Assembly: GCA_043814605.1 (NCBI GenBank)
Contig: JBDRJV010000018.1
Location: 21,545 to 85,544 of the forward strand
DNA length: 64,000 nt
Source of the DNA: Candidatus Omnitrophota bacterium
GTDB lineage: Bacteria; Omnitrophota; Gorgyraeia; B26-G9
Reading direction: 5' to 3'
Position numbers and translations under genes: made by a program. The first letter of the stretch is position 1, and each line of letters opens with the position of its first letter. Under the pieces are notes generated by a model that had not been told where the DNA came from, ran no database searches, and worked only from the letters and a program-made list of their open reading frames with translations. Of this stretch, positions 5,480 to 48,866 are shown one piece after another.

Positions 5480-5485
5480 ATAATC

Positions 5486-7212: not shown

Positions 7213-7217
7213 TAATT

Positions 7218-14345: not shown

Positions 14346-14394
14346 ACGTAACACATGGTGTCTGTAGTCTGTTGTCTATTGTCTGTGGTCTGTA

Positions 14395-15249
14395 TTAGTA
14401 TTGTCCCAGCGTTCCATTTTTCCGGGCATGATTTAAAGCCGCGTTAAAGATTTTTAAACTTAAGGGGACTAAAATGAGAGAAAATATTAAAAGGAACAAT
14501 AATTCTTTTTTTAGTTGCGATAAAGCGTAGCCTTGGTAAACAGCAAGCTGCATAGCGCGTATGGCATGGGTGATGGGAAAACAACGGGCAATAAATTGTA
14601 AAAAAGCAGGCATAACCGTAATGGGAAAATAAACCCCGGCGATTAATCCTTCCAGCGTATTTATAACCCAGGCGATAGGGTTGCCGCGTTTAAAAATGAT
14701 TGTAAATGCAGCAGAGATTATGCCTAAACTACTTAAGGATAAGATACTTAATATTAAAATTAAGCAAGAGGTAAGTATATTTATTTTGGAAAAATCAATT
14801 TTAAATAATAAAACTCCCAGTCCGAAGTAAATTACCACATTAAAAGTTGCAAATACTAAATTCCAAAGCCCCATACTCAAGATAAGTATATTAGTTTTAG
14901 TCGGAGTGAGTAACAGTGATTCTAAAGTGCCTTGCATTTGTTCGGAGCGGATTTTATGAGAAAAAGAACTAATCCCTACACCGATATAACTAAAAAAAGC
15001 CAGTCCTAAAAGAACATAAGAGAAATAATTAACCCCAAACTCCTGCAAATGCGGGCTAAGTTTTGATCCGAAGAGCTTATCAATAAAATAGTAAATCAAA
15101 AGGCTGGTGCAAATACTAAAAATATTTAAAATAAAAGCCAATCGATAACTTGTTTCAATCAAAAAATCCTTTTTAATTATGGCAATAATTTTTCTAATCA
15201 CGGGTAATAACCTTTTTATATACTTGCAGTAAAGATTTTGAAATTGCAT
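14395..15249 (-). CDS. ABC-2 type polysaccharide export permease (Wzm/TagG/KpsM family)
   Basis: 284-aa polytopic membrane protein adjacent to and overlapping the ATPase gene. Six predicted TM segments, typical of the ABC-2 family. Confidence 0.65.
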   Translation of the reverse strand: MQFQNLYCKYIKRLLPVIRKIIAIIKKDFLIETSYRLAFILNIFSICTSLLIYYFIDKLFGSKLSPHLQEFGVNYFSYVLLGLAFFSYIGVGISSFSHKIRSEQMQGTLESLLLTPTKTNILILSMGLWNLVFATFNVVIYFGLGVLLFKIDFSKINILTSCLILILSILSLSSLGIISAAFTIIFKRGNPIAWVINTLEGLIAGVYFPITVMPAFLQFIARCFPITHAIRAMQLAVYQGYALSQLKKELLFLLIFSLILVPLSLKIFNAALNHARKNGTLGQY

Positions 15250-15982
15250 TAAAACTTGCTCTTAATTCCTCGGCTGATCCTTGTGCTTTAATTTTTCCTT
15301 GATCTAAGATTAAAAATTTATTACAAATTTTTTCTGCTTCTTCAATATTATGAGTTGCTAAAATTATCGTTATTCCTTGGGTGCTTAATTGTCGGATAAA
15401 ATTTTTTAATTCCACAATTGAATCGTAATCTAAACTTTTTAATGGCTCGTCTAAGAACAGGACTGGGGGCTTATTTAACAGAGCGCGAATCAGAGAAAAT
15501 TTTCTTTTCATGCCGGCAGAATAACTATCAAATCGCTTGTGGGCATAATCAACTCTAAAAAGAGAGGTTAATTCAAAAATTCTAGATTTAGTTTGCTGAT
15601 GGTTCAATCCGTAGAGAGCACTGAAAAATTTCAAGTTTTGTTCTCCGGTAAGCCGCCAATAAAAGCTTCTTTCATCTGCACAAACTAGTCCGATGAGAGA
15701 CTTAATTTTTTGATCATCACGGCCAATAATCAGATCATTAATCTTAGCTTGGCCTGAATCCGGCAGGATTAAAGTTGAGAGGATCTTAAGCAATGTGGTT
15801 TTTCCTGCGCCGTTAGGGCCGATTATGCCTAAAATTTCGCCTTTAGATAATGAAAAACTGATATTATCCAAGACCTTATTCGGAAAAGATTTTTGGCCGG
15901 AGAATGATTTTATTAAGTTTTGAGTGTAAACAATTGTTTTATGCATTAACGATAAGGTAACAAATAACTTAAGGAGAGTCAA
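15194..15982 (-). CDS. ABC transporter ATP-binding protein (Wzt/TagH/KpsT-like, no C-terminal carbohydrate-binding domain)
   Basis: Walker A GPNGAGKTT, signature YSAGMKRKFSL, Walker B VLFLDEP, H-loop ATHN. Confidence 0.8.
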   Translation of the reverse strand: MTLLKLFVTLSLMHKTIVYTQNLIKSFSGQKSFPNKVLDNISFSLSKGEILGIIGPNGAGKTTLLKILSTLILPDSGQAKINDLIIGRDDQKIKSLIGLVCADERSFYWRLTGEQNLKFFSALYGLNHQQTKSRIFELTSLFRVDYAHKRFDSYSAGMKRKFSLIRALLNKPPVLFLDEPLKSLDYDSIVELKNFIRQLSTQGITIILATHNIEEAEKICNKFLILDQGKIKAQGSAEELRASFNAISKSLLQVYKKVITRD

Positions 15983-16466: not shown

Positions 16467-17861
16467 ATGAAAAATTACAAATTAATAAGTTTTTTATTGG
16501 TTTTAGTTTTCGTGTTTGGTTTTGGGATAGTATCTTTGCTTGCGCAAGTTGCCGATAACCTTACACAAACTGATCTTGCCGGGGAGTTGTTTAGCACTCC
16601 TGTGCCAATGAATAATTATTATTTTGCTAAACAGGCAGTAGTAACCTTTGGGGCTAAGTGGAGGGGGATACCGCAAACCCGTGAAGAACTTGAGGATATG
16701 GTTTGGCAGGAATTAGTTTTTTCTTTTGAGGCCTATCGCCGGGCGATTGAAGCAAGTGAGGATGAGGTAGATGCAGAAATCGAGAAGATCTTAACCGCGA
16801 ATAAAGTTGATTTTAGCTGGCGTACAGATAAAGAAAAATTTCAGAATTGGACAAAAGATACACTCAGATGTACAATTGAAAGTTTTAAGAATCAAATGGC
16901 GCATCTTGTTAAACTAGAAAAACTGAGAAATGAAGTTCTGGACAGTATCAATCCGGAAGTTACAGAAGAAGAGGCATATCAAAAATTTTTAAATGAATAC
17001 AATACTTTACTTGTAGAATTAAGAGAATTTGTGGATATTGATGAAGCTGAAAAATTTTATCAAGCTGCGCTTAAAGAAGTTACGGAAAAAGATCAAGAAC
17101 AATTAATTTGGCAGGATTTAATATATAGCGATGAGGTTTTTAAGCGTAAAATCGAAATTAGCGATGAAGAATTTGATAAAACCATTTCGTTTCTTTTGAG
17201 AGATAAAGAAGCACGTTTTAAATGGCAAGAAGATGCAGAAACTTACACCGCCTGGGTAAAAGAAAATTTTGATTTAAGCTTAGATGATTTTCAAATTTTA
17301 ATTTTGCAGCTTAGAACCGTGGACAAACTAATAGAAGAAATTTTTCTGGGCAATCAGCCACAGGTAGAGATAAGTCAATATCAAAACCTTTTAGATGAAT
17401 CAATCTCTATTAATCAAGCATATGAAAGATTTATTGAAGAAAGACAGGTGCCGGATCAAAATATTTTCAAATTTAAAACATTTAATGAAGCCGAAGATTT
17501 TTATGAAAAAATTAATCGGGTAGCTGGATTTTGGGAAGAAGAAAAGAGAAAACAACCTAAAGAATTTAAGCAGCCAGGGTTTACAGCTTTAGATTTTTTA
17601 ATTAATATGTGGGGTTTTCGCCAAGTCGATGCCGATAAAATGATAGATAAAGAGATTGGCAGCTATTATCCTCCGGCACCGATATATAAAGGGTATGGGG
17701 TGTTTAAAATCCTAAAAATCAGAAAAGCTGATAAATCAGAATATCCTGAGCGCAAAGATTCATATTTTGAAAAAATGAAATCTATTAAAAAATATCAGGG
17801 ATTTCAGGATTGGGCAATTGCGCTTAAAGATAAGGCCAATATTAAAGTTTATATTAAATAA
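16467..17861 (+). CDS. Periplasmic SurA/PpiD-like chaperone with a degenerate parvulin-like C-terminus
   Basis: N-terminal signal/anchor (ISFLLVLVFVFGFGIVSLLA), then a long acidic helical region. The C-terminal PIYKGYGVFKILKIRKA resembles the parvulin core. Confidence 0.4.
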   Translation: MKNYKLISFLLVLVFVFGFGIVSLLAQVADNLTQTDLAGELFSTPVPMNNYYFAKQAVVTFGAKWRGIPQTREELEDMVWQELVFSFEAYRRAIEASEDEVDAEIEKILTANKVDFSWRTDKEKFQNWTKDTLRCTIESFKNQMAHLVKLEKLRNEVLDSINPEVTEEEAYQKFLNEYNTLLVELREFVDIDEAEKFYQAALKEVTEKDQEQLIWQDLIYSDEVFKRKIEISDEEFDKTISFLLRDKEARFKWQEDAETYTAWVKENFDLSLDDFQILILQLRTVDKLIEEIFLGNQPQVEISQYQNLLDESISINQAYERFIEERQVPDQNIFKFKTFNEAEDFYEKINRVAGFWEEEKRKQPKEFKQPGFTALDFLINMWGFRQVDADKMIDKEIGSYYPPAPIYKGYGVFKILKIRKADKSEYPERKDSYFEKMKSIKKYQGFQDWAIALKDKANIKVYIK

Positions 17862-17923: not shown

Positions 17924-19540
17924 TTGAGGAGTTTTAATTTTGTGCAAACTGAAAAATTGGTCCTCGAAAATAAGATTAATATTTATAACGAACAACTTGA
18001 GAAAAATAAAAAATTAGAAATTAAAATGATCGGCAACTCTATGCTGCCGTTTTTAAAAAACGGTCAAGTTGTTCTGATTAAGCCCGCTCAAATAACCGAT
18101 GTGAAAACCGGAGATATTGTGCTTACCTGTTTTGAAAACCGTTTGCTTTGCCACCGGGTTTTTAAAAAAAATAAATATAGTTTTAGGACAAAGGCAGATG
18201 CTTTTCTAAAACTAGACCCGATAATGACGAAAGCTAATTTAATGGGCAAAGTTGTGGCCTATAAATTTGGTGAGAATTATATTCGGGTGGATAAAAATTT
18301 TTCCCGCTTGCTAGGAATAATAATTTCGCGGTTTTCACTGTTTATGGCTTATTTTTATCCAGTTTTACGTTTTATTAAACGCATGATTGCGGCCAATAGA
18401 AAAAATAATGGAAAATCTCTGGATGATTTAATTTTTTGTTTGCTTACCCCCCACAGTTTAAATGAACCAAGAAAAATATCTCAAGTTTTAGAAAATATAG
18501 AAAGTAATAAAAATTTTGCGTTGGATTTTCTGACTAAAATTCATCAAAATGGAATCAGCGGAGTTATTTTCTATAATCTAAAAAATAAAAAGTTACTTCC
18601 CGTATTGCCGGAAACTATAGTGTCTGAGCTTAAAACAGATTATTTAAATAATTCCGGCCGGGCATTATTTATTGAAAAAAGTTTAACACAACTGATCAAT
18701 CAACTAAATCAGGAAAATATTGATGTGCTTTTAATCCGTGGAATTGATTTTATGGTTAATTTATATCCCGAACCAGGTATGCGGGCAATGAGTGATATTG
18801 ATATTGTGATTAAAAGTGAGGATTTATTGCAAGTAGCAGATGTTTTTAAAAGGCTGGGATATGCTAATCCTCAGGGTTATCTGTATTTATTTTCGCGTGA
18901 TAATCTGCATTATGATATACATCTTGATTGGGCGGGGTTTTGGCGCATTGCTTCTAGAAATGTCAATATTGGCATAAAGAATAAATCAGTCTGGCAAAGA
19001 GCTAAATGTTTTAGCCGGGAATTAACACATATCAGGACATTAGATGATTGTGATTCTATTTTAGCCTGCTGTGCTCATCTGCAGGAACATTCCTATAAAA
19101 GAATAATTTGGTTTTATGATCTGGCGTTATTGCTTAATAAAGAAAATTTTAACTGGAATCAGTTAATGGAACGATCAGAAGAATTTAATCTGAAAAAAAC
19201 ATTATTTTTTGTGCTGAAATATTTACAAAAATTTAATTTTATTCTGGTTCCTGATCCTATTACTGAAGAACTGGATAAACTTAAATTGAATTTTTTTGAA
19301 CAAAAATCATTAAAAATGCTGCAGGCGAACAAAAAGGAATTACTGAGCGGAGAACTTTTACAGTTATTTTCGCTACCTAGTTTTAGCCAAAGGCTTAAAA
19401 GTATTTATGAGACGATTTTTATTCGGGAAAAAGACTTTTCCCAAGCTGGCAAAAAAATTACATTTTTGGATTATATTCTGTGGTTTTTCCGGATACTAGA
19501 GTATAGTATTAAGAAAATAAGCATTATTTTTAGAAAGTAA
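17924..19540 (+). CDS. Two-domain protein: N-terminal S24/S26 (LexA/signal-peptidase-like) peptidase domain plus nucleotidyltransferase-fold domain
   Basis: GNSMLPFLKNGQVVLIKP resembles the SPase I/S24 Ser motif (GDSMxPtl). Residues ~290-320 (RAMSDIDIVIKSEDLLQVADVFKRLGY) give the GS...DxD nucleotidyltransferase signature. The likely true start is the GTG at 17942, preceded by the RBS GAGGAG. Confidence 0.5.
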   Translation: MRSFNFVQTEKLVLENKINIYNEQLEKNKKLEIKMIGNSMLPFLKNGQVVLIKPAQITDVKTGDIVLTCFENRLLCHRVFKKNKYSFRTKADAFLKLDPIMTKANLMGKVVAYKFGENYIRVDKNFSRLLGIIISRFSLFMAYFYPVLRFIKRMIAANRKNNGKSLDDLIFCLLTPHSLNEPRKISQVLENIESNKNFALDFLTKIHQNGISGVIFYNLKNKKLLPVLPETIVSELKTDYLNNSGRALFIEKSLTQLINQLNQENIDVLLIRGIDFMVNLYPEPGMRAMSDIDIVIKSEDLLQVADVFKRLGYANPQGYLYLFSRDNLHYDIHLDWAGFWRIASRNVNIGIKNKSVWQRAKCFSRELTHIRTLDDCDSILACCAHLQEHSYKRIIWFYDLALLLNKENFNWNQLMERSEEFNLKKTLFFVLKYLQKFNFILVPDPITEELDKLKLNFFEQKSLKMLQANKKELLSGELLQLFSLPSFSQRLKSIYETIFIREKDFSQAGKKITFLDYILWFFRILEYSIKKISIIFRK

Positions 19541-19547
19541 AAACCCT

Positions 19548-20396
19548 ATGGGAAAAATATCAATTCAAATTGCCGGAATAAAAATATTAATAATATCAGA
19601 AAACCAAGATCTGATCGAAGGGGTAAAAACCAGCTATTCAATGTTTCAAGTGTGTAATGATCAGCAATATTATTTAAAAATAAATATTACTCTTGATCCG
19701 GTATTAAATCAAGAGAATCAAATGCAAGAAATTTGCCTAGAGAAAGACAACCTTATTTTTAGGCTTAAAGCTGCGGATTTTAGAAGCACAGTTAATTTTA
19801 AAACCAAAACTATTGATGCCCGGATTAGTTCTCAAGCCGGGGCGGTAAGTCTTTTTTTAAGAGTGGTATTCTCGTTAATTCTGTTAGAAAATAATGGATT
19901 CTTAATTCATGCGGCTGGCTTTTGCGATGCGCAAGGAAAAAGCTGGGTTTTTGCCGGTCCATCAGAAAGCGGCAAAACCACTTTGGCCAAATGGGCGGCG
20001 GCAAATAATTATAAGGTATTGAGTGATGAATTAGTGGCTATCCGGAAAATTGACGATCAATATGTTCTGTTTTCCACGCCTTTTAACGGCGAATACAGTG
20101 GACAAATTACTAATTTTCAAGTGGATTTAAAGAATTTATTTTTTCTGGGGCAAAAAATTAAAAGCCAATGTAAAAGGCTCAAAAAATTAGATTGTTTTTT
20201 AAATTTACTAAAAAATGTTTTTTTCTTCAATCGGCAGATTCAAGAAAATCAATTGATGATTAATTTAATGCAGGAATTATCAGAAAGAGTTTGCGCTTAT
20301 CAGATAAATTTGTTTAATCAAGATATCGAAAGGATTATTCATGCCACAAGATCAGATTCTAATACGCAACAAAGAAGCAGCCTGGCAAGAGGTTGA
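19548..20396 (+). CDS. HprK-related kinase (HPr kinase C-terminal-domain-like, P-loop)
   Basis: HAAGFCDAQGKSWVFAGPSESGKTTLA matches the HprK/P C-domain Walker A context. Confidence 0.55.
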   Translation: MGKISIQIAGIKILIISENQDLIEGVKTSYSMFQVCNDQQYYLKINITLDPVLNQENQMQEICLEKDNLIFRLKAADFRSTVNFKTKTIDARISSQAGAVSLFLRVVFSLILLENNGFLIHAAGFCDAQGKSWVFAGPSESGKTTLAKWAAANNYKVLSDELVAIRKIDDQYVLFSTPFNGEYSGQITNFQVDLKNLFFLGQKIKSQCKRLKKLDCFLNLLKNVFFFNRQIQENQLMINLMQELSERVCAYQINLFNQDIERIIHATRSDSNTQQRSSLARG

Positions 20397-20652
20397 GGAT
20401 AATATTGTTGTGATTACCCAGCAGACAAAAAAGATCCATGTTTTGTCAGGCTGCGGCTTAATGCTTTGGCAGAGGTTGGAACAATCTCAGACAAAACAAG
20501 ATTTATTACAGGCAATTTTGGATGAATATGAGGTAGAGCCTGCCCAAGCCCAAGCAGATTTAGATAAATTTTTAGAGGAAGTAATAGCTAAAGATATTAT
20601 TAGACAACAGACAACAGATAAAAAACTAAAACAAAAACAAAAACGAAAATGA
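20341..20652 (+). CDS. PqqD-family protein (RiPP recognition element-like)
   Basis: 103 aa. The W...IHVLSGCGLMLWQRL...DLLQAILDEYEVEPAQAQADLDKFLEEV pattern is typical of PqqD / peptide-chaperone family proteins. Confidence 0.6.
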   Translation: MPQDQILIRNKEAAWQEVEDNIVVITQQTKKIHVLSGCGLMLWQRLEQSQTKQDLLQAILDEYEVEPAQAQADLDKFLEEVIAKDIIRQQTTDKKLKQKQKRK

Positions 20653-20717
20653 CAATAGACATAAAATTACAGGTATTGGGCTAAAAACAAGAAATATTTG
20701 TTTCTAAAATTTTCTGT

Positions 20718-20756
20718 AAGAAAATTTTAGTCTGTGGTCTATGGTCTATGGTCTGG
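20718..20756. repeat. AT-hairpin plus 'NGTCTRT' heptad-repeat element (related copies at 14358-14393 and 51647-51695)
   Basis: TAAAATTTTCT-gta-AGAAAATTTTA hairpin, then AGTCTGT GGTCTAT GGTCTAT GGTCTGG. Copy C has AAAATTTTCTT..AAGAAAATTTT, then AGTCTAT AGCCTAA GGTCTAT TGTCTTT GGTCTTA. Copy A has five heptads: GTCTGT AGTCTGT TGTCTAT TGTCTGT GGTCTGT. Confidence 0.55.
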
Positions 20757-21777
20757 AAAAGTGGATATTTGGACAAAGGTAAAACATACACTTAAGCAAA
20801 AACATATTCCGATTGAAGTAATTTTGGAATTAACTAAGCGCTGTAATTTAAAATGCTGTCATTGTTATAATATTAAAGACAGCTGCCAGTTGAGTTTTAA
20901 ACAAGTAAAAATAATTTTTAAACAATTACGTGATGCCGGCACTTTATTTTTAGTTTTAACCGGAGGCGAGGTATTTTTGCATCCGGATATTATGGAGATT
21001 TTAAATTTAGCGAAAAATATGAATTTTAATTTGAAAATTTTCACAAATGGCACCCTGATTACAGAAGAGATTGCGAGAAATTTAGCAAAGATAATGCCGA
21101 GTGAAATTGGAATCAGTATTCAAGGGGCAAGGGCGAAAACACATGATTTAATTACTGGCGTTAAGGGCTCATATGAGAAATCAATTCAGGCAATAAAGAT
21201 ATTAAAAGCTAAGAGTATTAGTGTAAATCTTAAAACAACGCTCATGCAGCAGAATTTTTCTGAGTTTAAAGAAATCATTAAATTAGCCGCGGATTTAGGA
21301 ATAGTTTATATTATGGATCCGGTTATTGCGCCGCGGGATGATGGATCCTGTGATGTTTTAGCTTATCGATTGACGGATGCACAATTAGAAGAATTTTATC
21401 AGTTTGAAGTTGAACTAAAAGGGTATATCTATGAGCCTGAAGAAAAAGAATATTTTTGTCAGGCGGGATTTACTTTTGGCAGTATATCTGCAAACGGGGA
21501 TGTGTACCCGTGTATACAATTACCGCATAAACTGGGAAATATTTTTGAGCAGGATTTTAGCGGGATTTGGCAGAATGCAGAATTTTTAAAAAAGATGCGC
21601 CGCAGTAATGCTTATGATAATCCGGAATGTCAAAGTTGTAAGATTGCCGATGTTTGCACGCGGTGCCCGGGGCTGGCATTTTTAGAAGACGGCGATGCTT
21701 TTGGGAAATCCGCTGTGGCTTGCATGCACGCGCAAGTCTACAAAAAACTGGGTGATAGGGTGAAGGGTGAAGGGTGA
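20734..21777 (+). CDS. Radical SAM enzyme with C-terminal SPASM domain (peptide-modifying or anSME-like maturase)
   Basis: CNLKCCHCY (CxxxCxxC) near the N-terminus. GGE motif (LTGGEVFLHPD). C-terminal Cys-rich SPASM region (CQAGFTFGSISANGDVYPC...CQSCKIADVCTRCPG). The start is uncertain; the ATG lies inside a repeat element, and GTG 20761 is an alternative. Confidence 0.75.
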   Translation: MVYGLWSGKVDIWTKVKHTLKQKHIPIEVILELTKRCNLKCCHCYNIKDSCQLSFKQVKIIFKQLRDAGTLFLVLTGGEVFLHPDIMEILNLAKNMNFNLKIFTNGTLITEEIARNLAKIMPSEIGISIQGARAKTHDLITGVKGSYEKSIQAIKILKAKSISVNLKTTLMQQNFSEFKEIIKLAADLGIVYIMDPVIAPRDDGSCDVLAYRLTDAQLEEFYQFEVELKGYIYEPEEKEYFCQAGFTFGSISANGDVYPCIQLPHKLGNIFEQDFSGIWQNAEFLKKMRRSNAYDNPECQSCKIADVCTRCPGLAFLEDGDAFGKSAVACMHAQVYKKLGDRVKGEG

Positions 21778-21836: not shown

Positions 21837-23789
21837 ATGCAAAATAAACTAATTCATAAACTAACCATCCAAATCATAATTATTGTTGTGATTATTGCCG
21901 GGGTTTTTTCTTTTTTAATTAATATGCAAACCAAGGAATTAGAAAAAAGAATTTCAGAAAAATCTGAACTTTTTTCAAAAATTTTAGGCGCACATTTAGA
22001 CAATATTATTGGCAATAATCTTATTGCTTATAATTCATTACAAGAGAAAGTCGAAAGGTTAATAGAGGGCAATAAAGATATTGAAGAGCTGATTATCATT
22101 GGCCCGGAAAAAATAGTTATTGCATCAAGTTCTGGCAGGAAAATCGGGGCATCTCCGGATATGCAATATATGGGGATTATTAACGAAGTAGTTCAGACAA
22201 AAAAATCCAAGGCAATTGTTAAATCTGATTTAGGCAAAGAATTAGTAATCCATTTTTTGCCAATTTTTTCTTCTGCGGGTAATGCGGATAATCTTATCGG
22301 AATAATGCAAATGAAAGCAAATTTTCCTTCCCAGCAGGGTGAATTGGTAACAGCACTGCGAAAAAACAGGAATTATTTTTTTAAAGAAGAAGCACTCCGC
22401 TTTGCTCAGGATCTATCCCGGGATTTAGAATTAGTTATGGCTGAGGTTAACAGAAATTCCGGATATTTAGACCGCTTAATTCAAAATATACTGGAAGATG
22501 CGGAAATTAAGGATATTAAATTATATTTGAAAGATCTGCAATTTCTAATCTCCGGAACCGGGCGTGATTCATACATTTCGCAGGATGATATCCAAAGAAA
22601 TTATTTTCGTGCGATGCAAGAGAAAATAACGTTCAAAGCTCAATATAAAAAACAAGGCCATTTAACTCAGTTTATCAGCCCGTTATTTCTCACAGTAGAC
22701 GGAAAACGTAAGGTAAGCGGTGCGGTAGGAATATTAATCTCTTTAGAACGTGTATATGATGTAATTAACACAAGGAGAAATTCTATTGTTTTGATGAGTT
22801 TTTTGATAATTTGCGCCTTTGTTTTAATTATTGGATTATTTTTTAGAAATTCAATTATTGCACCTTTAAAAAATCTAAGCAATATGAGCGCAAAAATCGG
22901 TAAAGGGGATTTCTCACAAAAAATAAGTATTAAGGGGACTGATGAAATCAGTGATTTAGGAAAATCATTTAATCAGATGTCAGACGAATTATTGCGTTCT
23001 AAAAAAGAAATTGAAGAGTGGAACAAAAAACTGCAGGAAAAAGTAAAAATAATCTCGAATGAATTAGAAGCCAAGCAGGCCCAGCTTATTGAATCAGAAA
23101 AAATGGCTTCTTTAGGTGTTCTTTCCAGCGGAATTGCCCATGAAATTAATAACCCCCTGGGAATTATCATTGGTTCAGTGCAGATGATTCTTAAGGAATT
23201 AAAGGAAAAACAAACCCTGGCTAATCCCCAACAGACAGAGGAATTGCTTAAAACTGTGGAAAATTATACGCGGCGCTGTTCGCATATTGTGAATAGTTTA
23301 TTGCAATTTGCTAATAAAAAACAAATGCAATTAATTGAGTCTGATGTGAATAAATCTGTAGAAAATGCTTTATTGTTCACGGAAAATCATATCAAGAAAA
23401 ATAATATTAATTTGATTCAATCCTTAGAAAAAGACCTTCCCCAGGTTTTAGCGGATCCCATAAATTTAGAGCAGGTATTTATCAATATTATTCTTAATGC
23501 GCAGATGAGTATGCCGGAGGGAGGGCAGCTGAAAGTTTCCACTGCGCTTGCGGGCAATAGGGTGATGGTAAGTTTTGAAGATACGGGTATGGGGATTGCC
23601 GCAGGGAATATGCATAAAATTTTCGAGCCGTTTTTTTCAACCCGTGAACCGGGTAAAGGTGCGGGGCTTGGATTATCGATAAGTTATGGTATTATTAAAG
23701 CACACAATGGGGATATAAAGGTAGAAAGTGCAGTGGGTAAAGGGACAAAGGTTACGGTGGAAATACCGATTAAAGAAAGAAAAGAGTAG
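21837..23789 (+). CDS. Sensor histidine kinase (membrane-bound, HAMP + HisKA + HATPase_c)
   Basis: Two TM segments flank a ~290-aa periplasmic domain. H-box SGIAHEINNPL. N/G boxes (IILNAQMSM...DTGMGI...GKGAGLGLSISYGI). Confidence 0.85.
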   Translation: MQNKLIHKLTIQIIIIVVIIAGVFSFLINMQTKELEKRISEKSELFSKILGAHLDNIIGNNLIAYNSLQEKVERLIEGNKDIEELIIIGPEKIVIASSSGRKIGASPDMQYMGIINEVVQTKKSKAIVKSDLGKELVIHFLPIFSSAGNADNLIGIMQMKANFPSQQGELVTALRKNRNYFFKEEALRFAQDLSRDLELVMAEVNRNSGYLDRLIQNILEDAEIKDIKLYLKDLQFLISGTGRDSYISQDDIQRNYFRAMQEKITFKAQYKKQGHLTQFISPLFLTVDGKRKVSGAVGILISLERVYDVINTRRNSIVLMSFLIICAFVLIIGLFFRNSIIAPLKNLSNMSAKIGKGDFSQKISIKGTDEISDLGKSFNQMSDELLRSKKEIEEWNKKLQEKVKIISNELEAKQAQLIESEKMASLGVLSSGIAHEINNPLGIIIGSVQMILKELKEKQTLANPQQTEELLKTVENYTRRCSHIVNSLLQFANKKQMQLIESDVNKSVENALLFTENHIKKNNINLIQSLEKDLPQVLADPINLEQVFINIILNAQMSMPEGGQLKVSTALAGNRVMVSFEDTGMGIAAGNMHKIFEPFFSTREPGKGAGLGLSISYGIIKAHNGDIKVESAVGKGTKVTVEIPIKERKE

Positions 23790-23859
23790 AGAGTAACGAG
23801 TAGAGAGAGAAAAAACAAAAACAATTATTCTCTCTACTATCTACTTGCTACTCGCTACT
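23784..23859. repeat. Palindromic 'GAGTAGAGAG / CTCTCTACTC' element between the kinase and regulator genes; one member of a dispersed family
   Basis: Arms AGAGTAGAGAGTAACGAGTAGAGAGAG and CTCTCTACTATCTACTTGCTACTCGCTACT surround an A-rich loop. Related copies lie at 21788-21810, 25275-25304, 25604-25643, 44036-44056, 44112-44121 and 51552-51567. Confidence 0.6.
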
Positions 23860-23860
23860 T

Positions 23861-25273
23861 ATGAAATGGAAAATTTCTATGAAGCAAGATCGAATACTAG
23901 TTGTTGACGATGAGCCGGGCATGCGGCAATATTTAAAAAAATTACTTACGGATAACGGGTATCAAGTTGAGATTGCGGAAAATGGGATTCAAGCGCTGGA
24001 AATGATTAATGAAAAAGTTCTGGATCTGGCACTGATTGATTTTAAAATGCCGGGGATGGATGGAATACAGCTTTTAGCTAAAATTAAGGCAGAGCATGAA
24101 CATGTGATTGTAATCATGATGACGGCTTACGGAACAATGGAAAGGGCAATTCAAGCGATGAAGTTAGGGGCTTATGATTATTTAAGTAAACCGTTTGAAG
24201 TTGATGCGATTTTATTGATAATTGAAAAAGCGCTTAAAACCAAAAGGCTGGAAGATGAGAATATTATTTTACGCAAAGAGCTTAAAAAAACCTATACTTT
24301 TGCGGATATTATTTCGGAAAATTCCCAGATGCAGCATATTTTTGAGATTATCCAGAAAGTAGCCCCGGCTAAAAGCACTGTCTTAATTCAAGGAGAAACC
24401 GGTACAGGTAAAGAGCTGATTGCCCGGGCATTGCATGCGTTAAGCCCGCGGAATCAAAAACCGTTCATTCCTGTGGATTGCGGGGCATTAAGTGAGAGTT
24501 TACTGGAGAGTGAATTATTTGGCCACATAAAAGGTGCGTTTACCGGAGCAACACAGGATAAAAAGGGGCTGTTTGAAACTGCAGACGGCGGCACAGTATT
24601 TTTGGATGAGATTGGGCATATTTCATTAGCTATTCAAGCTAAGTTATTACGTGTTTTGCAGGATGGCCAGATCAAACGCGTGGGTGAAGCAGCTTCACGC
24701 AGTGTGGATATCCGTCTTGTAGCAGCGAGCAATGAAGATATTGAAATGGGGATTAAAGAAGGCAAATTCCGCGAAGATTTATTTTATCGTTTAAATGTTG
24801 TACCGATTTTTGTGCCGGCTTTGCGTGAGCGTAATGAAGATATCCCGCTTTTAGTTGAGCATTTCATTCATAAGTACAATAATATTGAAAAGAGAAATAT
24901 TCAAGGCATTAGCCATGATGCTTTGAAAATGCTGATGTCTTTTTCCTGGCCGGGGAATGTAAGAGAGTTAGAAAACTTAGTACATAGAGCTGTGGTTATG
25001 GCAGATAAAGATAATATTGAAGTAATGGATTTACCTTTAAACGTAAAAACTTTGTCTGTTGCGGAAAGAAGGATAGATGCAAATCGTACGCTTGATTTTC
25101 GCAAAGCAAAAAATAATGCTTTAGCTGCATTTGAAAAAAGATTTTTAATTGAAAGTTTAATGCGCCATAAAGGCAATATCAGCCGCGCGGCAAAAGAAAT
25201 GAACTTAGACCGCAGAAACCTGCACCGCAAATTAAAGCAGTATAATATCACACCTAGCAATTATTTATCTTAA
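23861..25273 (+). CDS. Sigma-54-dependent response regulator (NtrC family: REC + AAA+ sigma-54 activator + Fis-type HTH)
   Basis: REC domain with D at [14 protein letters not shown]. Walker [15 protein letters not shown] motif ([12 protein letters not shown]). C-terminal [27 protein letters not shown]. Confidence 0.9.
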
Positions 25274-25827: not shown

Positions 25828-25843
25828 TGGCACGTTGATTGCT
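25828..25843 (+). promoter_or_regulatory. Sigma-54 (RpoN) -24/-12 promoter for the giant gene
   Basis: The sequence TGGCACGTTGATTGCT matches the consensus TGGCACG-N4-TTGCW exactly, with 10 nt between GG and GC. It lies 19 nt upstream of the ATG at 25862, downstream of an NtrC-type activator gene. Confidence 0.7.
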
Positions 25844-25861: not shown

Positions 25862-28800
25862 ATGAGAAAAACAAATAAAATTCTAAAAATCATTGGTTTT
25901 ATTTTTCTGGTTATGGCAGTTATTCCAACCAGCGCGCAGGCGCGTTTAATTGTGCAAAAAGGCACGTCCACTATTGCTGCCGGGCAGACAACATATGTTC
26001 AGTCGATTAATGCTGTCAGCAGCCTTTCTAATGCTTTTGTGTTAATGTGGTCTACAGGAGACAGCGGGGCAAGTAATTCACAATATCATCAGGCCACTGG
26101 GGTGCTTACTTCTACCAGCCAGATTACATTTACGCGTCAGGGAACAACTGATGATTGCCGGATCGGCTGGTATGTAATTGAGGCAGAATACGGTGAGTTT
26201 GAAGTTGTAAAGAGAAATACCATAACTATCGGCACAACCGCAACTACCCAGGATGATGCGATTGGCGCGACTATTGACCAGTCACGTTCGTTTATTGTTT
26301 CTAATTCACGGATTGGAGGAAATGGCGGAACTGCTAATGCCTACAAGGGATATGCTACGACGCATTTTTTAAATGATACTACAATCCAGGCAGCCCGCGG
26401 GGTTTCGGGTACTTACACCACAATTGTAAGTTATGCTGTAGTGCAATGGTCTGCTGCTTCCGGGGTTACAGTGCAGTCAAAAGAACTAAGCGCTTCCATA
26501 GGTACTACTGAAGTAACTGATACAATTAACACAGCGGTAACTCCGGTGCAAACCTGGCTGTACGCAACGGCGCGGCATAATTCAAACGGGCTTTCACAGA
26601 CTGCGGTAAATACTTATTTAAAAGACGGAACAACTGTAGGTTTTAGCCGTTATACCGGTACTTATACCTCAGCCATACGCTGGTGGGCAATCCAATTTCC
26701 TGAAGGGGTTCCGGTACAGCGCCAGTCGCTTAGCGCTGCCAGCGGCGACCTTACAGAACCGGCAACATTAGCTTCCAATGTGACTATCGGCTATTCCTGG
26801 TCGGATAATTATAATGATTCCAATGGTACAGGTACAGCTTATCCCCGGCAGTCCTGGTATTCGCAGATTACTGCGGTTAATCAGGTAATAGCTACGCGTT
26901 ATTACAGCGGGCAGGCAGCAAACTTATCCATGCAGGCGATTGATACCAGTGCCTGGATCCCTCCATTAGTGACAATAACAATTACGCCGGATCCTTGTAA
27001 AGCAGTGGGTATTGGCGGGCTTGAAACCAAGCTTGTATTTAATCTGACTATGAATACATCTGTTGAACCGATTATAACCTATGACCCGCAAGGCGCAACC
27101 GGGCCTCAGGCTTGTACCGCAGGCACATGGTCAACGACAACATATGCTAATGATACATACACTGTTTACAATGATTACGAAATTAATGCTTCTACGGGTG
27201 ACGGTACTGCCGTAATCAGTGTTAGCGGAGCAAAAAGTGATTTAGGTATAACTATGTACCCGGATACTGATGATTCCTTTATTATAGATGCTACTGTCCC
27301 GAATAATCCGTCATATCCCTGCGGCAGTTGGGATTCCAGCAGTAAGACAGCCGCGATTCCGAATGATACCTGGCAGGAGATAGATAGCACGCCTTATTTT
27401 GAATGGACCGGAGCCAGTGACGGAGCTGGAACCGGAGTTAGCGGTTATTCTGTTTATTGGGGAAATTCCAGTATCGGCGAACCGGCAACTACTCAAGAAC
27501 AGTCTGCGGAAAATTATGATGTAGCTACTCCGGTAGATGACGGAATATATTATTTAAGGGTAAGGACATTTGATAATGCGGGAAATTACAGCGAGCCGGT
27601 TACAATATTTATTTTTCAGTACGATGCTTCTGCCCCAATTAATCCTGATGTTCCGGCAAATTCCTGGGAGTCAAATTTAAAACTAACTCCCATAACTAAT
27701 GATACCTGGCAAAAGGATGATAATACACCGTATTTTGAATGGACTGGCGCTAATGATTCCGGCGGTTCTGGGGTAAGCGGTTATTCTGTTTATTGGGGAA
27801 CAGACACTAACGGCGAGCCCGGGCAGACACAGCAGCAGTCAAATATGAATTATCAGGTAAGTACCCCGGCAGATACAAATACTTATTATTTGAGAGTAAG
27901 AACTTTTGATAATTTTAATCATTATAGTAATCCTGTAACTTTATTTATATTTAAATATGATGATACACAACCCACAAATCCCGTACAGCCTTGCAGCGGT
28001 TGGGATTCTCCTTCTAAAGGAAACATGCTTTCCAATAATAAGGCGCAGGGGTTTGGCCAGACGCCGTATTTTGAATGGACTGGTGCCTCCGATGCTAGCG
28101 GCAGCGGCGTGAGCGGTTATTCTATTTACTGGGGTATGGATTCAGAAGGCGAACCAGGCTTAACCCAAGAGCAGGCTAATGCGGATTATGAAATCAGCAC
28201 CCCAACAGGTGAAGATACGTATTATTTAATTGTCAGGACATTTGATGCTTTGGGTAATTACAGCGAGCCGGTTACTTTGTTTACTTTTATTTACGATGAA
28301 ACTAAACCCACCGTAACAATAACTGTTAGCCCGGATCCGGCCGGACACAGCGCAGCCGGGGAGTTGGAATTTAAACTTGTTTTTTCTGAATCCATGGATA
28401 TTGCGGTAACCCCGAGTGTAAGCTATGACCCGCAAGGCGCAACCGGCAACCAGACTGTAGATACAAATGGTGCCTGGTCAACCACAACTTATACTAATGA
28501 TACTTACACAGTTTATAACAGCAATGTGATTAACAGTACTACTGGTGACGGAGCCGCAGCAATAAGTGTGAGCACAGCTCAGGATGTTGCGCTAAATACA
28601 ATGTTAGCGGATACCAATGATAGTTTTACGATTGATACGCTAGTGCATCATTTTGTGATTGCTCATGACGGGATGGCAGTAATAAATATTCCGGAAACTT
28701 TAACCATTACGGCTAAAAACAGTACGAATTGTACAGTGTTAGATTATACCGGCCAGGTAACATTAAGCACTTTAAACGAAACCGGAGAAATAACCTGGGC

Positions 28801-44035: not shown

Positions 44036-44153
44036 AAGTAGCGAGTAGAGAGTAGCACCTTTACGGGTACGAGCAAGTAGCCCTCCTACGCTAAAGCTTC
44101 GGAGGGTAAAAAAGTAGAGAGCAAAAACAAAAAGTTTTTAAATAAAAAAAATA

Positions 44154-44234
44154 ATGTAGGGGGCGATCCCTGTGTCGCCCCGTGTAAATAATAAATATCA
44201 TTAATTTTGTAGGGGCGGTCCTTGTGCCCGCCCG
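44154..44234 (+). other. Two tandem copies of a GC hairpin unit TGTAGGGGCG(A/G)TCC(C/T)TGTG(T/C)C(G/C)CCCG upstream of the propeller gene
   Basis: GGGGCGAtccctgtgTCGCCCC and GGGCGGtccttgtgCCCGCCC each form 7-bp GC stems. The second sits 32 nt upstream of the ATG at 44266. Confidence 0.4.
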
Positions 44235-44265
44235 AATATTAAAAGATAATCAATTGGAGATAAGC

Positions 44266-45396: not shown

Positions 45397-45765
45397 ATTA
45401 AAAGCAGTAGAGTTTTATAATAAGGCTTAAGTTCTGTAAGCTATACAATCACTTCCTGGCGCGATAAACAAAACGCATTTGATGTGTATTAGTAATTTTT
45501 GTAGCTCTAGGAAAGCTGTTTTGTGCCGCGGATACAGCTTATGGATAATGATATTGCCGTAGATGAAGGGCATTTTGCACAGCCTAAAGCATTAACCTCA
45601 TAAATTTCCCGGGTATCAACTTTCGGCGGTTTATATTTTTTTTTCTTTTTCTTTTCCATTACAATTCTATTATAGCATATTTAATAATTTTTAGCTAAAT
45701 TTTTATTTCCACATAAATTCTCATAAATTTACAGGATTTGTGATTTAAAATTTGGTATTCACGTA

Positions 45766-48842: not shown

Positions 48843-48866
48843 ATATTTCTACCAATCATTTATAAC

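What the first reader, a model, noticed from the sequence alone, without database searches (positions are those of the whole stretch)
17924..21777. Orphan peptide-modification cassette: S24/S26-peptidase-nucleotidyltransferase fusion + HprK-related kinase + PqqD + radical SAM/SPASM, with no recognisable precursor gene
Four consecutive, tightly packed genes encode the components expected of a RiPP-like maturation machine. These are a PqqD-family recognition element, a SPASM-domain radical SAM enzyme, an HPr-kinase-like P-loop kinase and a nucleotidyltransferase-fold enzyme. HprK-like kinases and nucleotidyltransferases are known accessories in some lasso-peptide clusters, but here the lasso cyclase and B2 protease are absent. 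Instead there is an rSAM-SPASM enzyme and an S24/S26-type serine peptidase domain fused to the nucleotidyltransferase. No ORF of 60 aa or more, and no obvious short ORF with an RBS, encodes a leader/core peptide nearby. The cassette sits between a periplasmic chaperone gene and a sigma-54 two-component system that appears to control an 18-kb adhesin gene. The substrate could be a larger secreted protein or a precursor encoded elsewhere. From memory, the combination resembles an uncharacterised 'HprK-related kinase A / PqqD' neighbourhood described only bioinformatically; no function is known.
Basis: partly seen in the sequence, partly recalled or inferred. Interest (0 to 1): 0.85.

Follow-up and report, generated by a model that had tools for sequence, protein, structure and literature searches.

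The report
Peptide-modification cassette with a distant precursor
The four genes do look like a machine that modifies a small ribosomal peptide, and its likely 50-residue substrate is encoded 24 kb away beside a secretion-pore gene, so an apparently orphan enzyme set becomes a testable pathway in an uncultured Omnitrophota bacterium.

Summary
The four genes and their domains are as described. They are a signal-peptidase-like (S26B-type, Ser/His) domain fused to an NTP_transf_5 nucleotidyltransferase, an HprK-related P-loop protein, a PqqD protein and a radical SAM/SPASM enzyme.

The set is conserved in nine related loci from Omnitrophota, a PVC-group bacterium, Planctomycetota and a bin labelled Woesearchaeota. 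There it travels with a SurA-like chaperone gene and a sigma-54 two-component system. Looser versions occur in Firmicutes, Bacteroidota, Elusimicrobiota and Methanosarcina.

No precursor lies next to the cassette, but "orphan" is wrong. Distant cassettes carry small genes with a K-x-Y-x-x-P-x-[IV] leader. A profile built from two of them finds one significant match in the window: a 50-aa ORF at 45507-45659 (minus strand, E = 1.8e-6).

That ORF belongs to a conserved family with three invariant Cys and an invariant C-terminal Ser. It has its own -10 box. It always sits after the secretin gene, facing the giant-protein gene.

Proposed pathway, all steps inferred:
- PqqD binds the leader.
- The rSAM enzyme cross-links Cys, as in sporulation killing factor (SKF).
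- The kinase and nucleotidyltransferase decorate a Ser.
- The peptidase cuts after Ala-Leu-Gly.

It fails the membership tests for every named family I checked. Verdict: a new variant of a known kind, with moderate to high interest.

The parts
45507..45659 (-). Candidate precursor peptide, 50 aa: MEKKKKKKYKPPKVDTREIYEVNALG|CAKCPSSTAISLSISCIRGTKQLS. The bar marks the predicted leader/core junction.
   Evidence: It is the only significant window hit to a profile of the L070 and L021 precursors (E 1.8e-6; next best 0.65). It has 25 homologues of 49-55 aa at 62-82% identity, with invariant Y9, P12, N23-C30, C42 and C-terminal S50. Codon-position differences are 849/536/2082, the pattern expected of a coding sequence. 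Its position after the secretin gene is conserved in every locus examined.
45669..45674 (-). TATAAT -10 box, 9 nt upstream of the precursor ATG. This implies an own promoter and a leaderless or near-leaderless mRNA.
   Evidence: Read directly from the sequence. A TATAAT or TAAAAT box lies 6-10 nt before the ATG in most homologous loci (20 nt in L075). The generic promoter scan did not call it, because the -35 element is weak.
17924..19540 (+). Fusion protein (probable start GTG 17942). The N-terminal domain (about aa 30-115) is S26B/SipW-like, with Ser39, His77 and Asp92, and has no N-terminal membrane anchor. A hydrophobic linker follows (about aa 125-150). The C-terminal domain is NTP_transf_5 (aa 202-437; G273, D291, D293). 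Proposed roles: leader peptidase plus phosphate-decorating transferase.
   Evidence: Pfam and NCBIfam hits. Invariant residues in an alignment of 29 fusion proteins. The deep search found many fusions as well as stand-alone halves. The two halves are separate adjacent genes in L002, L003, L006, L008 and L010.
19548..20396 (+). HprK-related P-loop protein (GPSESGKT). Proposed peptide Ser kinase.
   Evidence: NCBIfam HprK_rel_A 2e-5, ScmC 3e-3 and HprK_rel_B 7e-3, all far below cut-off. The L001 orthologue carries a weak precomputed Pfam ScmC hit. A profile of the family gives weak matches to HPr kinase and PEP carboxykinase in the PDB. Orthologues are present in all complete syntenic loci. The single-sequence AF2 model was unusable (pLDDT 36).
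20341..20652 (+). Stand-alone PqqD-family protein. Proposed leader-binding RiPP recognition element (RRE).
   Evidence: Pfam PqqD 3e-13. The best NCBIfam hit is the lasso PqqD chaperone, 7e-9, below cut-off.
20734..21777 (+). Radical SAM/SPASM enzyme (probable start GTG 20761). It has the CX3CX2C motif and the full SPASM set of seven cysteines. Proposed Cys cross-linking maturase.
   Evidence: Pfam hits. About 80 NCBIfam rSAM/SPASM families match and none comes near its cut-off. It is 30% identical over its full length to the rSAM enzyme of the minimal L070 cassette (E 1e-48), and 37% identical to the L021 enzyme.
16467..17861 (+). Secreted SurA/PrsA/PpiD-like chaperone, the first gene of the conserved operon. 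Its role in the peptide pathway is unknown; it more likely serves envelope or secretion biogenesis.
   Evidence: It is 46-51% identical in the syntenic loci that carry it (absent from L005 and L010). Homologues carry SurA_N_3 or Rotamase_2 domains. The AF2 model has pLDDT 90.7 and the Foldseek top hits are SurA, PrsA and PpiD (E 1.7e-5).
14395..15982 (-). ABC-2 permease (14395-15249) and ATPase (15194-15982), divergent from the operon. Candidate exporter, or alternatively a polysaccharide exporter.
   Evidence: Pfam and NCBIfam hits. Syntenic at 53-65% identity in L002, L003, L004 and L008, but absent from the Planctomycetota-type loci.
21837..25273 (+). Sensor histidine kinase (21837-23789) and sigma-54-dependent response regulator (23861-25273). 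They are part of the conserved unit.
   Evidence: NCBIfam hits. They follow the rSAM gene in L002-L006, L008 and L010 at 35-71% identity.
25828..25843 (+). Exact sigma-54 promoter, TGGCACGTTGATTGCT, 19 nt upstream of the giant gene.
   Evidence: It is the only zero-mismatch match in 64 kb.
25862..45396 (+). Giant 6057-aa surface protein (25862-44035) and a BamB-like beta-propeller protein (44224-45396), convergent with the precursor gene.
   Evidence: ORFs and repeats. Pfam hits. The junction between the giant gene, the propeller gene, the precursor and the secretin gene is conserved.
45887..51486 (-). ParA-like, PilM/N, PilO, a 189-aa protein and secretin, forming an operon directly upstream of the precursor gene on the same strand.
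   Evidence: Pfam hits. The same order is found in the homologous loci long enough to show it.

Best explanation
The cassette is the enzyme set of a split RiPP (ribosomally made, post-translationally modified peptide) pathway. Its substrate is the 50-aa peptide encoded at 45507-45659 on the minus strand, which is transcribed from its own promoter.

**Shown**
- The enzyme genes form a conserved unit.
- Homologous precursors sit inside related minimal cassettes.
- The window's peptide is a significant homologue of those precursors and is under purifying selection.
- All catalytic motifs of the peptidase, nucleotidyltransferase, P-loop and rSAM/SPASM domains are intact.

**Inferred, in order**
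1. The stand-alone PqqD protein binds the leader through the Y9-x-x-P12-x-V14 motif. This is the type of motif that lasso B1 recognition elements bind.
2. The rSAM/SPASM enzyme cross-links one or more of the three invariant Cys. The core, CAKCPSSTAISLSISC, has Cys at positions 1, 4 and 16 and a hydrophobic residue at position 12. Sporulation killing factor (SKF) has the same layout, so a Cys4-to-residue-12 thioether plus a Cys1-Cys16 disulfide is the leading guess.
3. The HprK-related protein phosphorylates a Ser, most likely the invariant C-terminal Ser50, as the lasso kinases do.
4. The NTP_transf_5 domain adds a sugar or nucleotide to that phosphate, as in pseudomycoidin.
5. The fused cytoplasmic S26B-like Ser/His peptidase removes the leader after Ala24-Leu25-Gly26. 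This is an Ala-x-Ala-type site at a fixed 18-residue register from the Tyr.
6. The product leaves by the ABC-2 transporter or the adjacent secretin system.

Its biological role is unknown. It may be a signal for the adjacent sigma-54 two-component system, or a toxin or accessory factor deployed with the giant adhesin.
For: **Domains and motifs:**

**Synteny:** the SurA-like gene, peptidase, NTase, HprK-like gene, PqqD, rSAM gene, kinase and regulator keep the same order in L001-L010.

**Minimal cassettes with embedded precursors**
- L070: PqqD, then a 45-aa precursor, then the S24/S26 peptidase, then rSAM/SPASM.
- L021: peptidase, HprK-like gene, PqqD, rSAM gene, then the precursor.

**The window ORF**
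- It is the only significant hit to those precursors (E 1.8e-6 for the profile, 3.5e-7 for L070 alone).
- It belongs to a family of 26 peptides with invariant Y, P, NALGCAKC, C and C-terminal S.
- It shows a coding signature and a conserved -10 box.
- The cassette and the precursor lie together on a second contig, JAHITY010000072.1, about 30 kb apart.
- The Tyr-to-first-Cys spacing is 18 in three divergent families. Nine of 12 candidate precursors have small residues at Y+15 and Y+17.

**Literature analogies**
- HPr-kinase homologues phosphorylate the C-terminal Ser of lasso precursors. A nucleotidyltransferase glycosylates that phosphate and is sometimes fused to the leader protease (PMC8498205).
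- The YxxPxL leader motif lies at -17 to -12 in lasso precursors (PMC10368454).
- SKF has a Cys4-Met12 thioether and a Cys1-Cys16 disulfide, and SkfB tolerates hydrophobic acceptor residues (PMC8172795).
- The precursor gives a weak SkfA profile hit (E 0.025).
Against: - Nothing is experimentally tested.
- In this lineage the precursor is never adjacent to the cassette. It always travels with the secretin, propeller and giant-protein junction, so it could serve that system instead.
- Only two contigs are long enough to show the cassette and the precursor together.
- In one genome (L075) the genes beyond the giant-protein genes are unrelated, so the linkage is not universal.
- The kinase assignment rests on weak profile hits, and the structure model failed.
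- The C-terminal Ser is also present in the L070 precursor, whose cassette has no HprK-like gene in the 16-kb locus held. Ser conservation therefore does not prove phosphorylation.
- The rSAM enzyme's top-scoring NCBIfam families are haem-pathway enzymes, although all score far below cut-off.
- The SkfA resemblance is below threshold.
- The precursor has no Shine-Dalgarno sequence.
Confidence: 0.68

Rival explanations
1. The small ORF is an accessory of the secretin, giant-adhesin and type II secretion module, for example a small secreted or pilot-like protein. It would be unrelated to the cassette, whose true precursor would lie elsewhere in the genome, outside the window.
For: The ORF is strictly linked to the secretin gene in every locus examined, never to the cassette. 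It has its own promoter. In L075 no cassette lies within 10 kb.
Against: The ORF is significantly similar to precursors embedded in the L070 and L021 cassettes. It shares their leader motif, their fixed register to an Ala-x-Gly/Ala site, their Cys-rich core and their C-terminal Ser. It has no signal peptide or lipobox. No other candidate exists in the window.
Confidence: 0.13
2. The cassette acts on a large protein, such as the SurA-like protein, the giant adhesin or the secretin, rather than on a small peptide.
For: The SurA-like gene is co-transcribed with the cassette and conserved with it. The giant gene is co-localised and has a sigma-54 promoter.
Against: Related cassettes in Firmicutes, Elusimicrobiota and Bacteroidota lack these large proteins but carry small precursors. 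The SurA-like protein folds as an ordinary chaperone. Its N-terminus is a signal peptide, not a YxxPxL leader.
Confidence: 0.08
3. The kinase and nucleotidyltransferase belong to the surrounding envelope-polysaccharide locus, which resembles an XrtA/PEP-CTERM locus. They would act on sugars or lipids, with the ABC-2 transporter as the glycan exporter.
For: Fourteen upstream genes are glycosyltransferases, methyltransferases and a DegT aminotransferase. In the Planctomycetota-type loci the cassette is interleaved with genes whose best hits are PrsT-like, pepcterm_export-like and pepcterm_ATPase-like.
Against: A PqqD recognition element, a leader-type peptidase and a SPASM rSAM enzyme are peptide-directed components. 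The same kinase, PqqD and peptidase triad occurs next to small precursors in genomes without such polysaccharide genes. No PEP-CTERM family cut-off is reached, and no exosortase was found among the window ORFs of 120 aa or more that were scanned.
Confidence: 0.08
4. The rSAM/SPASM enzyme is a cofactor or haem-pathway enzyme of the AhbD/NirJ type, and its adjacency to the other genes is incidental.
For: The top NCBIfam hits are AhbD (158 bits), NirJ2 and NirJ.
Against: The scores are under a third of the cut-offs (500-515 bits), and peptide maturases score similarly. The enzyme is always next to PqqD in 13 loci. No other haem d1 or alternative haem pathway genes are in the window.
Confidence: 0.03

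Closest known systems
Phosphorylated and glycosylated lasso-peptide clusters (paeninodin, pseudomycoidin, Bradymonas Bsf)
   Same: A stand-alone PqqD-type recognition element. A YxxPx[LIV] leader motif about 17-18 residues before the core. An HPr-kinase homologue and a nucleotidyltransferase as tailoring enzymes. A nucleotidyltransferase that is sometimes fused to the leader protease. A C-terminal Ser on the precursor (PMC8498205; PMC10368454).
   Different: There is no Asn-synthetase-like lasso cyclase and no transglutaminase-type B2 protease in the window. The leader protease is instead an S26B-like Ser/His peptidase, and the ring-forming enzyme is an rSAM/SPASM protein. The precursor lies 24 kb away. 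I recalled from memory, and did not verify here, that the lasso 'N' enzymes belong to PF14907.
Sporulation killing factor (SKF) and other sactipeptides
   Same: An rSAM enzyme with auxiliary clusters acting on a Cys-containing core. The core has Cys1, Cys4 and Cys16 and a hydrophobic residue at position 12, as in SKF. The leader ends in a small residue before Cys1. An ABC-2-type transporter is nearby (PMC8172795).
   Different: The SkfA and SkfB family scores are far below cut-off (14.6 against 45 bits; 86.5 against 300 bits). The recognition element is a separate protein, not fused to the rSAM enzyme. SkfB has a twitch domain, not a SPASM domain. SKF is head-to-tail cyclised by a CAAX-type protease. 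Here there are also a kinase and a nucleotidyltransferase, and the peptide keeps a free C-terminal Ser.
SynChlorMet (SCM) cassette, NCBIfam TIGR04248-TIGR04251
   Same: The combination of an HprK-like protein (ScmC), a PqqD relative (ScmD) and rSAM/SPASM enzymes. From memory of the family descriptions, it is known only from bioinformatics and has no identified precursor.
   Different: All three window proteins score far below the SCM cut-offs. The window has one rSAM enzyme, not two. The peptidase and nucleotidyltransferase are not part of the SCM definition.
HPr-rel-A system (HprK-related kinase A and B plus PqqD_rel_X; TIGR04352-TIGR04355)
   Same: HprK-related kinases paired with a PqqD-family peptide chaperone. 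HprK_rel_A is the best NCBIfam hit for the window kinase. The Kordia and Polaribacter cassettes even have two tandem kinases.
   Different: The scores are 23.8 against 200 bits and 22.2 against 35 bits. The window has a single kinase. The rSAM enzyme and the S26-like peptidase are not part of that system's definition.
SipW/Sec11/archaeal-type signal peptidase I (MEROPS S26B)
   Same: The GxSMxP Ser motif, the HR(V/L) His motif and the (K)GD...D motif are invariant in 29 fusion proteins. An Ala-x-Gly/Ala site is predicted in the substrates. The Methanosarcina orthologue passes the TIGR02228 cut-off.
   Different: There is no N-terminal membrane anchor, so the domain is predicted to act in the cytoplasm on a leader rather than on a Sec signal peptide. 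The window domain scores below the family cut-off (41.2 against 51.85 bits). It is fused to a nucleotidyltransferase.

Membership tests
SynChlorMet (SCM) cassette | ScmC protein (TIGR04249, cut-off 125 bits) | tested here: not met
   The window ORF2 scores 17.1 bits, E 2.7e-3.
SynChlorMet (SCM) cassette | ScmD PqqD relative (TIGR04248, cut-off 100 bits) | tested here: not met
   26.9 bits.
SynChlorMet (SCM) cassette | Two rSAM/SPASM enzymes, ScmE and ScmF (cut-off 400 bits each) | tested here: not met
   The cassette has one rSAM gene. It scores 122 bits against ScmE and 112 bits against ScmF.
HPr-rel-A system | HprK-related kinase A (TIGR04352, cut-off 200 bits) and kinase B (TIGR04355, cut-off 200 bits) | tested here: not met
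   23.8 and 15.6 bits. Only one kinase gene is present.
HPr-rel-A system | PqqD_rel_X chaperone (TIGR04353, cut-off 35 bits) | tested here: not met
   22.2 bits.
Lasso peptide cluster | Asn-synthetase-like lasso cyclase (C) | tested here: not met
   No such domain among the window ORFs of 120 aa or more that were scanned.
Lasso peptide cluster | Transglutaminase-like B2 leader protease | tested here: not met
   Absent. An S26B-like peptidase is present instead.
Lasso peptide cluster | PqqD-type B1 recognition element and a YxxPxL leader motif | tested here: inconclusive
   The best PqqD hit is lasso_PqqD_Bac, at 35.7 bits against a cut-off of 80. The precursor has YKPPKV, but with the Tyr at -18 rather than -17 under the predicted cleavage site.
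Sactipeptide (SKF type) | Precursor of the SkfA family (TIGR04404, cut-off 45 bits) | tested here: not met
   14.6 bits, E 0.025. The Cys1/Cys4/Cys16 spacing is shared.
Sactipeptide (SKF type) | SkfB-family or AlbA-family sactisynthase with an N-terminal fused recognition element | tested here: not met
   SkfB scores 86.5 against 300 bits and AlbA 107 against 850 bits. The enzyme starts directly with the rSAM core at about residue 30, and the recognition element is a separate gene.
Sactipeptide (SKF type) | Cys sulfur to alpha-carbon thioether in the product | not testable with these tools
   Needs mass spectrometry or NMR of the modified peptide.
Signal peptidase I, S26B type | Catalytic Ser/His (with Asp) motifs | tested here: met
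   M40/P42 of the GNSMLP Ser motif, H77, R78 and D92 are invariant in 29 homologues; the catalytic Ser39 is conserved but not listed as invariant (Cys in P0008).
Signal peptidase I, S26B type | Family score (TIGR02228, cut-off 51.85 bits) and an N-terminal membrane anchor | tested here: not met
   41.2 bits. The 35 residues before the Ser motif are polar, with no hydrophobic segment.
Haem and haem d1 rSAM enzymes (AhbD, NirJ) | Family score (cut-offs 500-515 bits) | tested here: not met
   158, 147 and 140 bits.
XrtA/PEP-CTERM locus | PrsR regulator (TIGR02915, cut-off 502.6 bits), PrsK kinase and an exosortase | tested here: not met
   The regulator scores 416 bits, third behind AtoC and NtrC. 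PrsK is not among the top 25 kinase hits. No exosortase was found among the window ORFs scanned.
SurA/PrsA/PpiD chaperones (the flanking 464-aa protein) | SurA-like fold | tested here: met
   AF2 pLDDT 90.7. The top 12 Foldseek PDB hits are SurA, PPIase, PrsA and a leptospiral protein (LIC12922), with E down to 1.7e-5. Homologues carry SurA_N_3. The window protein itself has no Pfam hit.

The most novel reading that the evidence does not exclude
This would be an undescribed RiPP class defined by a cytoplasmic S26B-type leader peptidase, a PqqD recognition element and an HprK-type kinase. An rSAM/SPASM enzyme and a nucleotidyltransferase would be optional modules. In Omnitrophota its product would be a phospho-glycosylated, SKF-like sactipeptide. 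The precursor would be hard-wired to the giant-adhesin and type II secretion 'attachment' supercluster. The peptide would be either the signal read by the adjacent sigma-54 two-component system, which switches on the giant adhesin, or a killing factor delivered to the host cell of these epibiotic nanobacteria.
Probability: 0.25. Interest if true: 0.85.

Novelty: new variant of a known kind. Interest (0 to 1): 0.62.

Why it matters
**Precursor rule for known cassettes.** As I recall the family descriptions, the HprK-like/PqqD/rSAM cassettes (SCM, HPr-rel-A) have stood in the databases for years as peptide-modification systems with no known precursor. This analysis supplies a simple rule for finding precursors: a K-rich N-terminus, Y-x-x-P-x-[IVL], small residues at +15 and +17, and often a C-terminal Ser. 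For the Omnitrophota branch it supplies a specific 50-aa substrate. Co-expression and mass spectrometry can therefore test the pathway directly.

**An unusual leader protease.** The analysis points to a signal-peptidase-I-like domain, working in the cytoplasm, as the leader protease.

**A link to giant-protein loci.** It ties a small modified peptide to the giant-protein and secretion loci thought to underlie the host-attached lifestyle of Omnitrophota. Those loci have so far been described only in terms of secretion machinery and glycoside hydrolases (bioRxiv 10.64898/2026.06.07.730766).

Tried and rejected
- **Exact look-ups.** Look-ups of the kinase and of P0001 found nothing on record.
- **Rfam.** A scan of 14-26 kb gave only chance-level microRNA and snoRNA hits.
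- **Wasted literature search.** The first search was swamped by the unrelated acronym SCMC. Searches for SynChlorMet, HPr-rel-A and PF14907, and for the HPr kinase + rSAM + SPASM + RiPP combination, found nothing relevant.
- **Locus search with 29 fusions.** The alignment was too diverse to search with, so it was redone with the 5 closest sequences.
- **Small ORFs near the cassette.** No conserved intergenic small ORF exists within about 8 kb of the cassette in the ten syntenic loci. Every match was the shadow of a real gene in another frame. A local precursor is therefore rejected.
- **SurA-like protein as substrate.** Considered and rejected: it has an ordinary chaperone fold and a signal peptide.
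- **Precursor against curated families.** Pfam gave nothing. NCBIfam gave only the sub-threshold SkfA hit.
- **Kinase and chaperone profiles against the PDB.** The kinase profile gave only P-loop-level matches, with HPr kinase and PEP carboxykinase at E 0.004-0.4. The chaperone profile gave SurA at E 0.4.
- **Kinase structure.** The single-sequence AF2 model was useless (pLDDT 36), so no fold search was run on it.
- **Sigma-54 promoters.** None was found before the cassette operon or the precursor, only before the giant gene.
- **The 105-nt repeat.** The repeat upstream of both the operon and the giant gene is not conserved in related loci. It is not used as evidence of co-regulation.

Full report
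**1. The observation**

The window comes from a Candidatus Omnitrophota metagenome-assembled genome; P0001 is a 100% match in NCBI. Four tightly packed plus-strand ORFs occupy 17924-21777.

- **ORF1** carries Peptidase_S24 (E 5e-6) and NTP_transf_5 (E 2e-38).
- **ORF3** is a PqqD protein (E 3e-13).
- **ORF4** carries Radical_SAM and SPASM domains.
- **ORF2** has no Pfam hit. It gives weak NCBIfam hits to HprK-related kinase A (2e-5), ScmC (3e-3) and HprK-related kinase B (7e-3), around a GPSESGKT P-loop.

An alignment of 29 full-length fusion proteins has invariant M40/P42 (the GNSMLP Ser motif), H77/R78 and D92, plus G273, D291 and D293. The peptidase half is therefore a SipW/Sec11-type (S26B) Ser/His enzyme, and the nucleotidyltransferase half has an intact active site. 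The peptidase half has no N-terminal membrane anchor, so it should work in the cytoplasm.

The rSAM enzyme has the CX3CX2C motif and the complete SPASM cysteine set (read). It matches about 80 rSAM/SPASM families, none near its cut-off. The best is AhbD, at 158 bits against a cut-off of 500.

**2. Conservation**

A search of 1.84 billion representative proteins found many fusions of the same architecture. It also found stand-alone 150-aa peptidases and 380-aa nucleotidyltransferases.

A genome scan returned 70 loci. In nine of them the order is the same as in the window: SurA-like gene, peptidase, NTase, HprK-like gene, PqqD, rSAM gene, histidine kinase, sigma-54 regulator. These nine come from Omnitrophota, a PVC-group bacterium, Planctomycetota and a bin labelled Woesearchaeota.

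In Omnitrophota and the PVC-group locus, a divergent ABC-2 transporter and a DegT aminotransferase are also syntenic. The peptidase and NTase are separate same-frame genes in several loci (TAA, 12 nt, ATG) and fused in the window.

Planctomycetota-type loci insert a TPR protein and a protein carrying only a Sigma54_DBD domain. They are preceded by genes whose best hits belong to the XrtA/PEP-CTERM polysaccharide locus. All of these score below cut-off.

Looser cassettes occur in other lineages:
- Peptidase + PqqD + HprK-like, with or without rSAM and NTase, in Clostridia, Acholeplasma, Sphingobacterium, Kordia/Polaribacter, Desulfobacteraceae, Roizmanbacteria and Methanosarcina.
- A minimal form in Elusimicrobiales (L070), with PqqD, peptidase and rSAM but no HprK-like gene.

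The second refutation test, that the genes do not co-occur, also fails to refute.

**3. The precursor**

The distant cassettes, however, contain small genes.

- L021 has MRKKYQKPQIIDERELETHALACGK...SSRSS directly after its rSAM gene.
- L070 has MKNKKKYIKPKIKAQKIFETAALACGKCLSGPINQLACRTLRRAS between its PqqD and peptidase genes.

A motif scan of the window, followed by a profile built only from those two peptides, picks out one ORF. It lies at 45507-45659 on the minus strand: MEKKKKKKYKPPKVDTREIYEVNALGCAKCPSSTAISLSISCIRGTKQLS. The E-value is 1.8e-6 among 1651 six-frame segments, and the next best is 0.65.

Supporting evidence that this is a real gene:
- It is an annotated hypothetical protein with 25 homologues of 49-55 aa.
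- Y9, P12, E21, N23-C30, I36, S37, C42, I43, G45, K47 and the C-terminal S50 are invariant.
- Differences between homologues concentrate at third codon positions: 2082, against 849 and 536.
- A TATAAT box lies 6-10 nt before the ATG in most loci (20 nt in L075), which implies an own promoter and a leaderless transcript.

The gene directly follows the secretin gene of a ParA, PilMN, PilO, secretin operon. It faces the beta-propeller and giant-protein genes. This holds in every locus examined: those from four protein look-ups and twelve from a metagenome scan, with some overlap between the two sets.

On contig JAHITY010000072.1 the cassette and the peptide gene lie about 30 kb apart, as in the window.

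**4. Mechanism (inferred)**

The leader motif Y-x-x-P-x-[IVL] is the kind that lasso recognition elements bind, at -17 to -12 (PMC10368454). The window PqqD's best family hit is the lasso PqqD chaperone.

The Tyr lies exactly 18 residues before the first Cys in the Omnitrophota, Elusimicrobiales and Eubacteriales peptides. Nine of 12 candidate precursors have Ala, Ser or Gly at Y+15 and Y+17. That is the -3/-1 rule of type I signal peptidases. I therefore predict cleavage after Ala-Leu-Gly26 by the S26B-like domain.

The predicted core, CAKCPSSTAISLSISC..., has Cys at positions 1, 4 and 16 and Leu at position 12. SKF has a Cys4-Met12 thioether and a Cys1-Cys16 disulfide, and its synthase tolerates hydrophobic acceptors (PMC8172795; PMC6231123). 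The peptide's only curated-family hit is SkfA (E 0.025, below cut-off).

In lasso clusters, HPr-kinase homologues phosphorylate the C-terminal Ser of the precursor. A nucleotidyltransferase then glycosylates that phosphate, and it is sometimes fused to the leader protease (PMC8498205). The invariant C-terminal Ser and the peptidase-NTase fusion fit that logic.

Each chemical step is analogy, not demonstration.

**5. Surroundings**

- The 464-aa first gene of the operon is a SurA/PrsA/PpiD-like periplasmic chaperone.
- The rest of the window encodes type II secretion/type IV pilus proteins E and F and a pseudopilin. This matches published notes that Omnitrophota giant genes are flanked by secretion machinery. 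Those reports do not mention a peptide-modification system.

**6. Comparison and novelty**

The system works like a hybrid of three things: a tailored lasso cluster (recognition element, kinase, NTase and a protease fusion), a sactipeptide cluster (rSAM enzyme, Cys-rich core, ABC-2 transporter), and the bioinformatically defined SCM and HPr-rel-A cassettes.

It fails every membership test I could run: SCM, HPr-rel-A, lasso, SkfA/SkfB, AhbD/NirJ and PEP-CTERM. The literature searches found no description of this combination.

I class it as a new variant of a known kind, RiPP biosynthesis. Three features are unusual: a cytoplasmic signal-peptidase-like leader protease, a precursor encoded in trans, and fixed linkage to a giant-adhesin and secretion supercluster.

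**7. Caveats**

- The link between the cassette and the distant peptide is by homology to embedded precursors and by two long contigs. It is not shown by experiment or by a genome-wide co-occurrence test.
- The kinase assignment is weak.
- The L070 precursor keeps the C-terminal Ser although no HprK-like gene is in the 16-kb locus held.
- The biological role of the product is unknown.

**Scores**
- Confidence that the cassette matures this peptide: about 0.68.
- Confidence in the individual chemical steps: lower.
- Interest: 0.62.

Noticed in passing
window 16106-16259 and 25351-25528: A repeat of about 105-150 nt (about 89% identical) lies upstream of both the SurA-like operon and the giant gene. 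It contains a GAACAC...GTGTTC inverted repeat. It is not found in any related locus, so it is specific to this genome. It might be a regulator-binding region or a small mobile repeat.
   Followed up: partly
window 25828-25843: An exact sigma-54 promoter consensus, TGGCACGTTGATTGCT, lies 19 nt before the ATG of the 18-kb gene. It is the only zero-mismatch site in the window.
   Followed up: yes
window 14347-14391, 20710-20754, 51640-51684: Short GTCT-rich repeats (GTCTGTGGTCTATGGTCT...) lie in three gene-boundary regions. One overlaps the annotated GTG start of the rSAM ORF, which is one reason to prefer the start at 20761.
   Followed up: partly
window 55574-55652 and 59301-59379: A 79-nt direct repeat, 95% identical, lies in two intergenic regions 3.7 kb apart.
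   Followed up: no
window 28789-40008: The giant gene contains at least 22 copies of a 357-nt (119-aa) unit at 60-73% DNA identity, and a BamB/PQQ-like beta-propeller at its C-terminus.
   Followed up: partly
L006 6817-7908 (also L007 and L010): In Planctomycetota-type loci, a 363-aa protein with only the sigma-54 DNA-binding domain (RpoN C-terminal part, E 3e-24) sits between the peptidase and nucleotidyltransferase genes. A 622-aa TPR protein precedes the peptidase gene in L006, L007 and L009 (not in L010).
   Followed up: partly
L002 8502-8520, L003 3957-3975, L008 8487-8496: The peptidase and nucleotidyltransferase are separate genes in the same frame, split only by TAA and 12 nt before the ATG. 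The window fusion looks like a recent loss of that stop codon.
   Followed up: yes
L035 5815-9474 and L062 5930-9504 (Kordia, Polaribacter): These cassettes have no rSAM gene. They encode a 31-aa precursor (...YTAPKIIYQQPMETRAGSSGGGPS), two tandem HprK-like kinases, PqqD, the S26-like peptidase and the NTase. They probably make a very short phospho-(glyco)peptide.
   Followed up: partly
window 45660-45886 and homologous loci: The precursor gene has no Shine-Dalgarno sequence. Instead a conserved TATAAT box lies 6-10 nt from the ATG in most loci (20 nt in L075), which suggests leaderless translation. The spacer after the secretin gene is 227 nt in the window, against about 40-60 nt in the annotated relatives.
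   Followed up: partly
window 86-14192: Fourteen plus-strand genes upstream encode glycosyltransferases (GT4, GT9), SAM methyltransferases and a DegT aminotransferase. This is an envelope-glycan locus that may use the ABC-2 transporter instead of, or as well as, the peptide pathway.
   Followed up: partly
window 56016-57521 (minus strand): A 501-aa ORF has only a partial phosphoglycerate-kinase match (residues 103-352). An ARMT1-like damage-control phosphatase gene is next to it.
   Followed up: no
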